From assembly GCF_009914755.1 (NCBI RefSeq), contig NC_060931.1: DNA of 64,000 bases. One strand, written 5' to 3'. The notes under the pieces were generated by a model. It was not told the DNA's origin, did no database searches, and saw only the letters and a list, made by a program, of their open reading frames with translations. The stretch comes from the human T2T-CHM13v2.0 reference genome, Homo sapiens. The translations under genes and the position numbers were made by a program. This document shows positions 47,906 to 48,556 of this stretch, piece after piece; position 1 is the stretch's first letter, and the number at the start of each line of letters is the position of its first letter.

Positions 47906-48556
47906 CTTTGTGGTTTTATCTACCTTTGGTCTTTGATGATGGTGACGTACATATGGGTTTTTGGTGTGGATGTCCTTTCTGTTTGTTAGTTTTCCTTCTA
48001 ACAGACAGGACCATCAGCTGCAGGTCTGTTGGAGTTTGCTAGAGGTCCACTCCAGACCCTGTTTGCCTGGGTATCAGCAGCGGTGGCTGCAGAATAGTGT
48101 ATATTGGTGAACCGCAAATGCTGCTGCCTGATCGTTCTTCTGAAAGTTTTGTCTCAGAGGAGTACCCGGCCGTGTGAGGTGTCAGTCCGCCCGTACTGGG
48201 GGGTGCCTCCCAGTTAGGCTACTCGGGTCAGGGACCCACTTGAGGAGGCAGTCTGCCCGTTCTCAGATCTCAAGCTACATGCTGGGAGAACCACTACTCT
48301 CTTCAAAGCTCAGTTGGAAATGCAGAAATCACCCATCTTCTGCATCGCTCACGCTGGGAGCTGCAGACGGGAGCTGTTCCTATTCGGCCATCTTGGCTCC
48401 TCCCCACAAGGCATACTGCTAACTAGTTTTTGGGGCCAGAGGAATGGGTGAAGCAGGAGTTTTTACTTTTTCTAAAATTTGTTGCAAAGCACTTTCCAAC
48501 TCTCTGAGACTGGACAGAATTCTCCTCTACCCACAGATCTGTATCTATGTATCTAT

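What the first reader, a model, noticed from the sequence alone, without database searches (positions are those of the whole stretch)
48290..48405. The same L1 is a spliced integrant (SpIRE97/622): its 5'UTR intron was removed before insertion
Seen: the minus strand reads ...GCATTTCCAACTGAG|CTTTGAAGAGAGTAGTGG..., with the junction at 48309/48308, exactly 97 nt from the L1 5' end (48405). The 5'UTR is 500 nt instead of about 1 kb. Established: L1 has a donor at TGAG|GTAC (nt 97/98) and an acceptor at GACAG|CTTTG (~nt 621/622), and such spliced integrants lose ~524 nt including most of the internal promoter, the antisense promoter and ORF0. Together with the transduction, one RNA was spliced, read through, polyadenylated downstream and fully reverse transcribed (~6.8 kb). 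That combination is rare and lets a SpIRE be traced to its parent locus.
Basis: partly seen in the sequence, partly recalled or inferred. Interest (0 to 1): 0.75.

Follow-up and report, generated by a model that had tools for sequence, protein, structure and literature searches.

The report
Published spliced L1 with missed transduction
This human L1 retrotransposon copy beside BRAF really was made from a spliced L1 RNA, but it is already catalogued, and the only new detail is that it also carried 1.17 kb of chromosome 3 sequence with it.

Summary
On the minus strand an L1 starts at 48405, and its nucleotide 97 (48309) is joined directly to the sequence that follows a 483-532 nt stretch in unspliced relatives. 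That stretch begins with GT in 25 of 27 relatives and ends with AG in 26 of 27.

The element is already in print. It is SpIRE(97/622)-67, L1PA4, hg38 chr7:140708549, in Larson et al. 2018, and S1 Data there shows the window's own flank and 5'UTR letters. The main claim is therefore right but known.

What I add:
- **Missed transduction.** The paper scores this element "Transduction: No" (10-bp target-site duplication (TSD), 16 untemplated nt). Window 42780-41609 is a 1.17 kb copy (3.7% diverged) of chr3:79959671-79958505. It is bounded by the L1's own A-run and by ATTAAA, an A-run and an exact 10-bp TSD.
- **Parent missing.** The chr3 site holds no L1 in this assembly. It reads like an empty L1 endonuclease site, so the parent is lost and its splicing state cannot be read.
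- **No siblings.** No other copy of the tag and no closely related SpIRE turned up.
- **Side note.** 9 of 29 loci with the same junction were not found in the published list.

Ape orthologues could not be checked.

The parts
48408..48417 (-). 5' copy of the target-site duplication AGTATGCCTT (13 nt with one mismatch if extended to 48420)
   Evidence: identical 10-mer at 41601-41592
48406..48407 (-). Two extra nucleotides (GT) between the duplication and L1 nucleotide 1
48309..48405 (-). L1 5'UTR nucleotides 1-97, the part upstream of the splice donor
   Evidence: matches the first 97 nt of 29 other L1 copies at 96-98% identity
48308..48309 (-). Splice junction ...CTGAG|CTTTG..., the 97/622 join in L1.3 numbering
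   Evidence: 27 unspliced relatives with GT...AG; 29 of 29 other spliced copies identical; published sequence
47906..48308 (-). Remaining 403 nt of the 5'UTR. It includes the ~125-nt stretch (about 48158-48034) that younger L1 copies lack, which is the region Larson et al. describe as the 129-bp ZNF93-site segment
   Evidence: younger copies lack query 248-372; paper text
46892..47905 (-). ORF1, still open (337 aa), with the trimerisation, RBD-like and dsRBD-like Pfam domains complete
43008..46828 (-). ORF2 remains, broken into at least five open pieces; the endonuclease and reverse transcriptase domains are recognisable
42777..42790 (-). The L1's own A-run (14 A). The last four A are also present at the chr3 site
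41609..42780 (-). 3'-transduced tag, a copy of G000:C3:79959671-79958505 (minus strand)
   Evidence: 1107 of 1149 ungapped columns identical; homology stops at both A-runs
41630..41635 (-). ATTAAA polyadenylation hexamer, 16 nt before the terminal A-run and conserved at chr3
41602..41613 (-). Terminal A-run (A10 G A). The first five A could be templated by chr3
41592..41601 (-). 3' copy of the target-site duplication AGTATGCCTT

Best explanation
This is the published element SpIRE(97/622)-67, an L1PA4 copy.

Inferred sequence of events:
1. A full-length L1 once sat at chr3 (T2T ~79,959,67x, minus strand) and was transcribed from its own start site.
2. The 5'UTR intron (donor after nt 97, acceptor before nt 622 in L1.3 numbering) was spliced out.
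3. Transcription ran through the L1's own poly(A) signal and was polyadenylated 1.17 kb downstream, after an ATTAAA.
4. The whole ~6.8 kb RNA was copied into chr7 by target-primed reverse transcription, producing a 10-bp target-site duplication (TSD).

Directly shown: the junction, the GT...AG ends of the missing stretch in relatives, the identity with the published entry, the homology of the tag to chr3 and its exact limits, the TSD, and the absence of an L1 at the chr3 site.

Inferred: that splicing happened in the RNA that made this copy rather than one generation earlier, and that the parent was a polymorphic L1 later lost. The tag divergence points to roughly 12-19 million years ago.

Consequence, taken from the paper and not tested here: the copy lacks most of the sense promoter and is expected to be a dead end.
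For: **Junction.**
- Junction and 97-nt count.
- The missing stretch is 483-532 nt in 27 of 29 relatives; GT starts it in 25 of 27 and AG ends it in 26 of 27.
- The same junction is present in 29 of 29 other fetched spliced copies.

**Published identity.**
- The S1 Table row is SpIRE(97/622)-67, PA4, chr7 140708549.
- S1 Data 'Clone 67' shows the window's own flank and 5'UTR.

**Tag.**
- The tag has exactly one other copy in the genome, on chr3.
- Homology covers window 42780-41609 only. Neither the L1 body nor either chr7 flank matches chr3.
- At chr3 the tag is preceded by ...GCTT|AAAAGTAG, whose bottom strand reads TTTT/AA, the L1 endonuclease consensus quoted in the paper.
- The tag ends after ATTAAA-N16 and an A-run.
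- An exact 10-bp repeat, AGTATGCCTT, lies right after that A-run and 2 nt before L1 nt 1.
- Tag divergence is 42 of 1149 (K2P 0.038), with no differences at CpG sites.
Against: - No orthologous ape locus could be examined, so a later deletion is excluded only by argument.
- Larson et al. did not detect the 97/622 splice by RT-PCR in transfected HeLa cells.
- The parent L1 is absent at chr3. The usual corroboration for a transduction, an L1 directly upstream of the source copy of the tag, is therefore missing.
- The nick site implied on chr7 (TACT/G, or TGCT/A with the 13-nt TSD) is not the canonical TTTT/A.
- The terminal A-run is short (10 A, G, A), and five of its A could be templated by chr3.
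- The published curation of this same element chose another TSD and wrote 'No' for transduction.
Confidence: 0.88

Rival explanations
1. The splice is inherited. The lost chr3 parent was itself a SpIRE97/622 that retrotransposed again, so the intron was removed one or more generations before this copy was made.
For: The parent cannot be inspected. The paper finds that the SpIRE97/622 5'UTR keeps weak promoter activity. A later paper reports one SpIRE, in RAP1GDS1, that produced two offspring (passages only). In the tree the window groups weakly (SH-aLRT 86) with two other SpIREs, L016 and L024.
Against: The copy starts at L1 nt 1 with only 2 extra nt and no 5'-transduced host sequence, unlike the RAP1GDS1 case, which used a host promoter. 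None of 28 other SpIREs shares more than 4 rare variants with it over 1.9 kb. No second copy of the tag exists. The paper measures strongly reduced promoter activity and retrotransposition for SpIREs. The tree sample was biased, so its grouping carries little weight.
Confidence: 0.08
2. This is a genomic deletion after insertion. A full-length L1PA4 inserted, and about 525 bp of its 5'UTR were later lost through the 2-nt AG microhomology.
For: The break point is ambiguous by 2 nt (AG on both sides). No orthologue could be checked. The 97/622 splice was not seen by RT-PCR in HeLa cells.
Against: The ends fall exactly on GT and AG. The identical junction recurs in 29 of 29 other fetched copies at separate loci and in the 116 catalogued copies spanning L1PA1-L1PA6. 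Independent random deletions would not repeat to the base in this way.
Confidence: 0.02
3. The published reconstruction is right. There is no transduction, the 1.17 kb is native chr7 flank, the TSD is the A-rich 10-mer with one mismatch, 16 nt at the 5' end are untemplated, and the chr3 copy is an unrelated duplication.
For: S1 Table and S1 Data of Larson et al.. The implied nick TTTT/G is closer to the consensus than mine. AAAAACTAGT (48431-48422) against AAAAAGTAGT (42781-42772) is a 9-of-10 match.
Against: The 3' half of that proposed TSD is itself part of the chr3 sequence (AAAAGTAGTAGG). The chr3 homology begins exactly at the L1 A-run and ends exactly at ATTAAA-N16 plus an A-run followed by an exact 10-mer repeat of the 5' flank. 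A duplication would not stop at these marks. Sixteen untemplated nt are also unnecessary under my reading.
Confidence: 0.04
4. This is a template-switch chimera. Reverse transcription began on a polyadenylated chr3 transcript and jumped at its 5' end to the poly(A) tail of a spliced L1 RNA.
For: The layout, L1 then A-run then unique sequence then A-run then TSD, is formally compatible.
Against: The tag starts at chr3 exactly where the bottom strand reads TTTT/AA. This is expected for the insertion site of a parent L1, but would be a coincidence for an RNA 5' end. No transcript evidence was available.
Confidence: 0.02

Closest known systems
SpIRE97/622 (Larson et al. 2018, PLoS Biol, PMC5860796), specifically entry SpIRE(97/622)-67
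   Same: It is the same element. The flank, 5'UTR and junction letters are identical, and subfamily PA4 and hg38 chr7:140708549-140714306 agree.
   Different: The paper records no transduction, a 10-bp TSD with 1 mismatch, a TTTT/G nick and 16 untemplated nt. I find a 1.17 kb 3' transduction from chr3 and an exact 10-bp TSD lying 2 nt from the L1 start.
SpIRE(97/622)-13 (same paper): L1PA3 with a 705-bp 3' transduction and a second copy on chr5 at 96.1% identity
   Same: It is a spliced L1 that also read through into flanking DNA, and its tag has one other genomic copy.
   Different: The tag here is longer (1,172 against 705 bp). I also show that the source site holds no L1. The table does not say whether an L1 adjoins the chr5 copy.
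L1 3' transduction (Moran 1999; Goodier 2000; Pickeral 2000; the last two are cited in the paper, and the mechanism is recalled)
   Same: There is read-through of the L1 poly(A) signal, use of a downstream signal, and a TSD placed after the second A-run.
   Different: The parent element is absent from the source locus in this assembly.
SpIRE in RAP1GDS1 that produced offspring through a host promoter (bioRxiv 10.1101/2025.02.02.635956, also Cell Genomics 2026; passages seen)
   Same: It shows that a SpIRE can be a parent, which is the rival reading for the lost chr3 element.
   Different: Those offspring carry 5'-transduced host exons. This copy begins at L1 nt 1.

Membership tests
SpIRE97/622 | L1 5' end intact to nt 97 and joined directly to nt 622 (L1.3 numbering) | tested here: met
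   The numbering comes from the paper.
SpIRE97/622 | The missing stretch is bounded by GT...AG in unspliced L1 copies | tested here: met
   GT in 25 of 27 and AG in 26 of 27 unspliced relatives
SpIRE97/622 | Hallmarks of target-primed reverse transcription: TSD, 3' A-run, endonuclease-like nick site | tested here: met
   An exact 10-bp TSD and a terminal A-run are present. The nick site is a non-canonical variant (TACT/G or TGCT/A).
SpIRE97/622 | Listed in the published catalogue | tested here: met
   SpIRE(97/622)-67
SpIRE97/622 | The segment was lost before integration, so all orthologues carry the junction | not testable with these tools
   No ape genome is on hand. Only the recurrence argument is available.
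L1 3' transduction | Unique non-L1 sequence between the L1's own A-run and a second A-run that is followed by the TSD | tested here: met
L1 3' transduction | The tag maps to one other genomic locus, with homology ending at the two A-runs | tested here: met
   two copies only, and no flank homology
L1 3' transduction | A polyadenylation signal shortly before the end of the tag | tested here: met
   ATTAAA at 41635-41630, 16 nt before the A-run, and conserved at chr3
L1 3' transduction | A full-length L1 directly upstream of the source copy (corroborating rather than defining, since parents are often lost) | tested here: not met
   in 9.9 kb of chr3 there are only two small L1 3'-end pieces, 1.28 kb away. 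The site reads as an empty TTTT/AA site.

The most novel reading that the evidence does not exclude
The lost chr3 progenitor was itself a spliced L1. On that reading this copy is second-generation offspring of a SpIRE that started transcription at its own nt 1 without a host promoter, so 97/622 SpIREs would not be strict dead ends. Nothing here excludes it, because the parent is gone, but nothing positive supports it either. A more modest reading is much better supported, at about 0.85: the published entry misses a 1.17 kb 3' transduction whose parent is lost, and the catalogue of 116 lacks at least 9 copies.
Probability: 0.08. Interest if true: 0.4.

Novelty: already known. Interest (0 to 1): 0.15.

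Why it matters
The main claim repeats a published catalogue entry, so it adds little.

The correction has small practical value. It shows that hand-curated empty sites for old L1s can mistake a transduced tag for native flank. It supplies a second long, well-supported transduction among SpIREs. It also gives an age for the insertion that is independent of the L1 subfamily clock (K2P 0.038 between the tag and its source).

A SpIRE whose tag leads to an empty source site illustrates that the parents of fixed L1 copies were often unfixed alleles.

The 9 junction-bearing loci not found in S1 Data suggest that the share of spliced copies among full-length L1s (~1.8% in the paper) is an underestimate.

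Tried and rejected
- **Finding an unspliced parent.** The tag leads to chr3, but no L1 is there.
- **Looking for siblings from the same parent.** The whole tag and its first 169 nt each have only the chr7 and chr3 copies.
- **Asking whether this copy belongs to a propagating SpIRE lineage.**
  - The tree of 56 rows (30 spliced, 26 unspliced) used 962 columns. L010, L055 and L058 were dropped for poor span. It is star-like with no strongly supported clade around the window, and its sampling was biased by how the loci were chosen.
  - The rare-variant count over 1.9 kb among 29 spliced copies (L010 dropped) gave at most 4 shared sites.
- **An unbiased search with the downstream 5'UTR plus ORF1.** Their splicing state is therefore unknown.
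- **Earlier findings of this scan.** These were not open to the session.
- **Ape orthologues.** No tool holds them.
- **Literature.** A search for SpIRE + transduction + LINE-1 from 2018 onward listed 12 of 14 papers. None of the listed titles or abstract starts concerns this locus. I did not open them, except the two papers cited above.

Full report
**What is there.**

On the minus strand an L1 begins at 48405 (GGGGAGGAGCCAAGATGG...), two nucleotides after the flank ...AGCAGTATGCCTTGT. Its sequence runs ...TTTCCAACTGAG|CTTTGAAGAGAGTAGTGG... with the join at 48309/48308, and 48405-48309 is 97 nt.

The ORF1 ATG is at 47905, so the 5'UTR is 500 nt. ORF1 is still open (337 aa, three L1 ORF1 Pfam domains). 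ORF2 is in at least five pieces.

**Is the 5'UTR really short by one clean segment?**

I used the first 97 nt to fetch 29 other L1 copies from the same genome and aligned the window's first 706 nt to each.
- 27 of 29 carry an extra 483-532 nt exactly after nt 97.
- One (L038) is another copy with the same junction.
- One (L055) joins nt 97 to a point 64 nt inside ORF1, which is the 97/976 type.
- The extra stretch begins with GT in 25 of 27 (L040 has CT, L041 has GC) and ends with AG in 26 of 27 (L063 has a local deletion there).
- The upstream part also ends in AG, so the break point is ambiguous by 2 nt.

A search with the whole spliced 500-nt 5'UTR returned 39 other contiguous matches. I fetched 29 of them, and 29 of 29 show the identical ungapped junction.

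**It is already published.**

Larson et al. 2018 (PMC5860796) define SpIRE97/622 by donor G98U99 and acceptor A620G621 of L1.3, a 524-nt loss. I read sections 7, 8, 11, 16 and 17, passages elsewhere, S1 Table whole, and S1 Data by term search. They list 116 copies in L1PA1-L1PA6.
- S1 Table has [quoted passage not shown].
- S1 Data "Clone 67 ... chr7:140708549-140714306" prints the window's own flank, 5'UTR and junction.

The paper also reports:
- five transcription-factor sites are lost and promoter activity is severely reduced;
- SpIREs are generally dead ends;
- the 97/622 splice itself was not detected by RT-PCR in HeLa cells.

That the antisense promoter and ORF0 lie inside the lost segment is my recollection. 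The paper's text only says they are in the 5'UTR.

**The transduction.**

After the L1's 14-A run (42790-42777) come 1,172 nt (42780-41609). These have exactly one other copy in the genome, G000:C3:79959671-79958505 on the minus strand. The first 169 nt alone also have only these two copies.

The homology stops at both ends of this stretch. Neither the L1 body nor 1.5 kb of either chr7 flank matches the 9.9 kb of chr3 that I fetched. The only exception is two small L1 3'-end pieces 1.28 kb away.

At chr3 the sequence reads ...CATGCTT|AAAAGTAGTAGGAAGG.... The bottom strand is TTTT/AA, the endonuclease consensus quoted in the paper, so this looks like the empty insertion site of a parent L1.

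The end of the tag is conserved in both copies as ...CATTAAAACTTGAGATAAAAACT. Chr3 then continues with A5 GCTTC, while the window has A10 G A followed by AGTATGCCTT. ATTAAA (41635-41630) lies 16 nt before the A-run.

AGTATGCCTT (41601-41592) is repeated exactly at 48417-48408, 2 nt before L1 nt 1. With one mismatch the repeat extends to 13 nt.

This anatomy is that of a read-through transcript from chr3, polyadenylated downstream and inserted into chr7. The integrant spans 48405-41602, which is 6,804 nt.

**Why the published empty site is probably wrong.**

The paper pairs AAAAACTAGT in the 5' flank with AAAAAGTAGT after the L1 A-run and calls the 16 nt in between untemplated. That second 10-mer is part of the chr3 sequence. 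My alternative needs no untemplated stretch beyond 2 nt.

Two points count against my reading:
- its implied chr7 nick (TACT/G or TGCT/A) is less canonical than TTTT/G;
- the terminal A-run is short.

**Age.**

The tag and its chr3 source differ at 42 of 1149 ungapped columns (31 transitions, 11 transversions, none at CpG), plus 8 indel events. K2P is 0.038. At 1.0-1.5e-9 substitutions per site per year this gives about 19-12.5 million years.

This fits L1PA4. The subfamily's age of roughly 18 million years is recalled, not checked; the paper gives ~27 million years for L1PA6. I therefore expect the element in great apes and not in Old World monkeys. This is an inference.

**Parent spliced or not?**

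This cannot be read, because the parent is gone. Indirect evidence leans towards an unspliced parent:
- the copy starts at L1 nt 1 with no host 5' sequence;
- no sibling carries the tag;
- none of 28 other spliced copies shares more than 4 rare variants with it over 1.9 kb;
- the tree is star-like (biased sample, three rows dropped).

A later paper shows that one SpIRE did produce offspring, but through a host promoter and with 5'-transduced exons (passages only).

**Verdict.**
- The novelty class is "already known".
- The added value is a probable correction to one catalogue row, with about 0.85 confidence in the transduction, and the finding that the source site is empty.

Noticed in passing
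Loci L008 (C7:21317873), L010 (C18:9334280), L011 (C9:8210673), L012 (C11:74223910), L018 (C11:12431566), L024 (C2:154477697), L027 (C11:27297864), L029 (C13:23549450), L033 (C23:57109790): These nine loci carry the same ungapped 97/622 junction. A 24- or 25-nt piece of each 5' flank gave 0 hits in Larson et al. S1 Data. Two control loci (L005, L007) and L013 were found by the same test. No S1 Table row lies near them after allowing for local T2T-hg38 offsets, which is my own estimate. The catalogue of 116 is probably incomplete. Caveat: a single base difference between assemblies inside the search term would also give 0 hits.
   Followed up: partly
window 47505-50213, minus strand: According to the gene table supplied with the task, an exon of alternative BRAF transcripts covers the first ~900 nt of this L1 in the sense direction. 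It ends at 47505 inside ORF1, just before an A-rich run. That 3' end might reflect oligo-dT priming on the A-rich stretch rather than a true poly(A) site. Larson's table leaves the 'Gene' column empty for this element.
   Followed up: no
L003, G000:C3:79960954-79961117: Two abutting small L1 3'-end pieces in opposite orientations (L1 nt 5333-5450 and 5583-5623 of the window copy) lie 1.28 kb upstream of the tag's source. They look like a short inverted, 5'-truncated L1 insertion and are unrelated to the transduction.
   Followed up: partly
L055, G000:C6:110935042-110935138: In this copy L1 nt 97 is joined to a point 64 nt inside ORF1, the 97/976 type of junction. By position it is probably the listed SpIRE(97/976)-6 in FIG4.
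   Followed up: no
L040 and L041 (unspliced L1 copies): The donor dinucleotide is CT in L040 and GC in L041, instead of GT, at the 97/98 position. These are ordinary decay of old copies. Larson et al. report that the donor lies in a RUNX3 site, so such changes would also affect the promoter.
   Followed up: no
window 48431-48424 and 41620-41613, minus strand: The 8-mer AAAAACTA occurs both in the chr7 5' flank and at the very end of the transduced tag, where it is templated by chr3. It is probably chance in A-rich sequence. It could also reflect annealing of the RNA 3' end at the target.
   Followed up: no
window 46892-47905, minus strand: ORF1 of this ~12-19-million-year-old copy is still open over 337 aa with all three domains, while ORF2 has at least five breaks. 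Given the break density in ORF2, an unbroken 1 kb is not unusual.
   Followed up: partly
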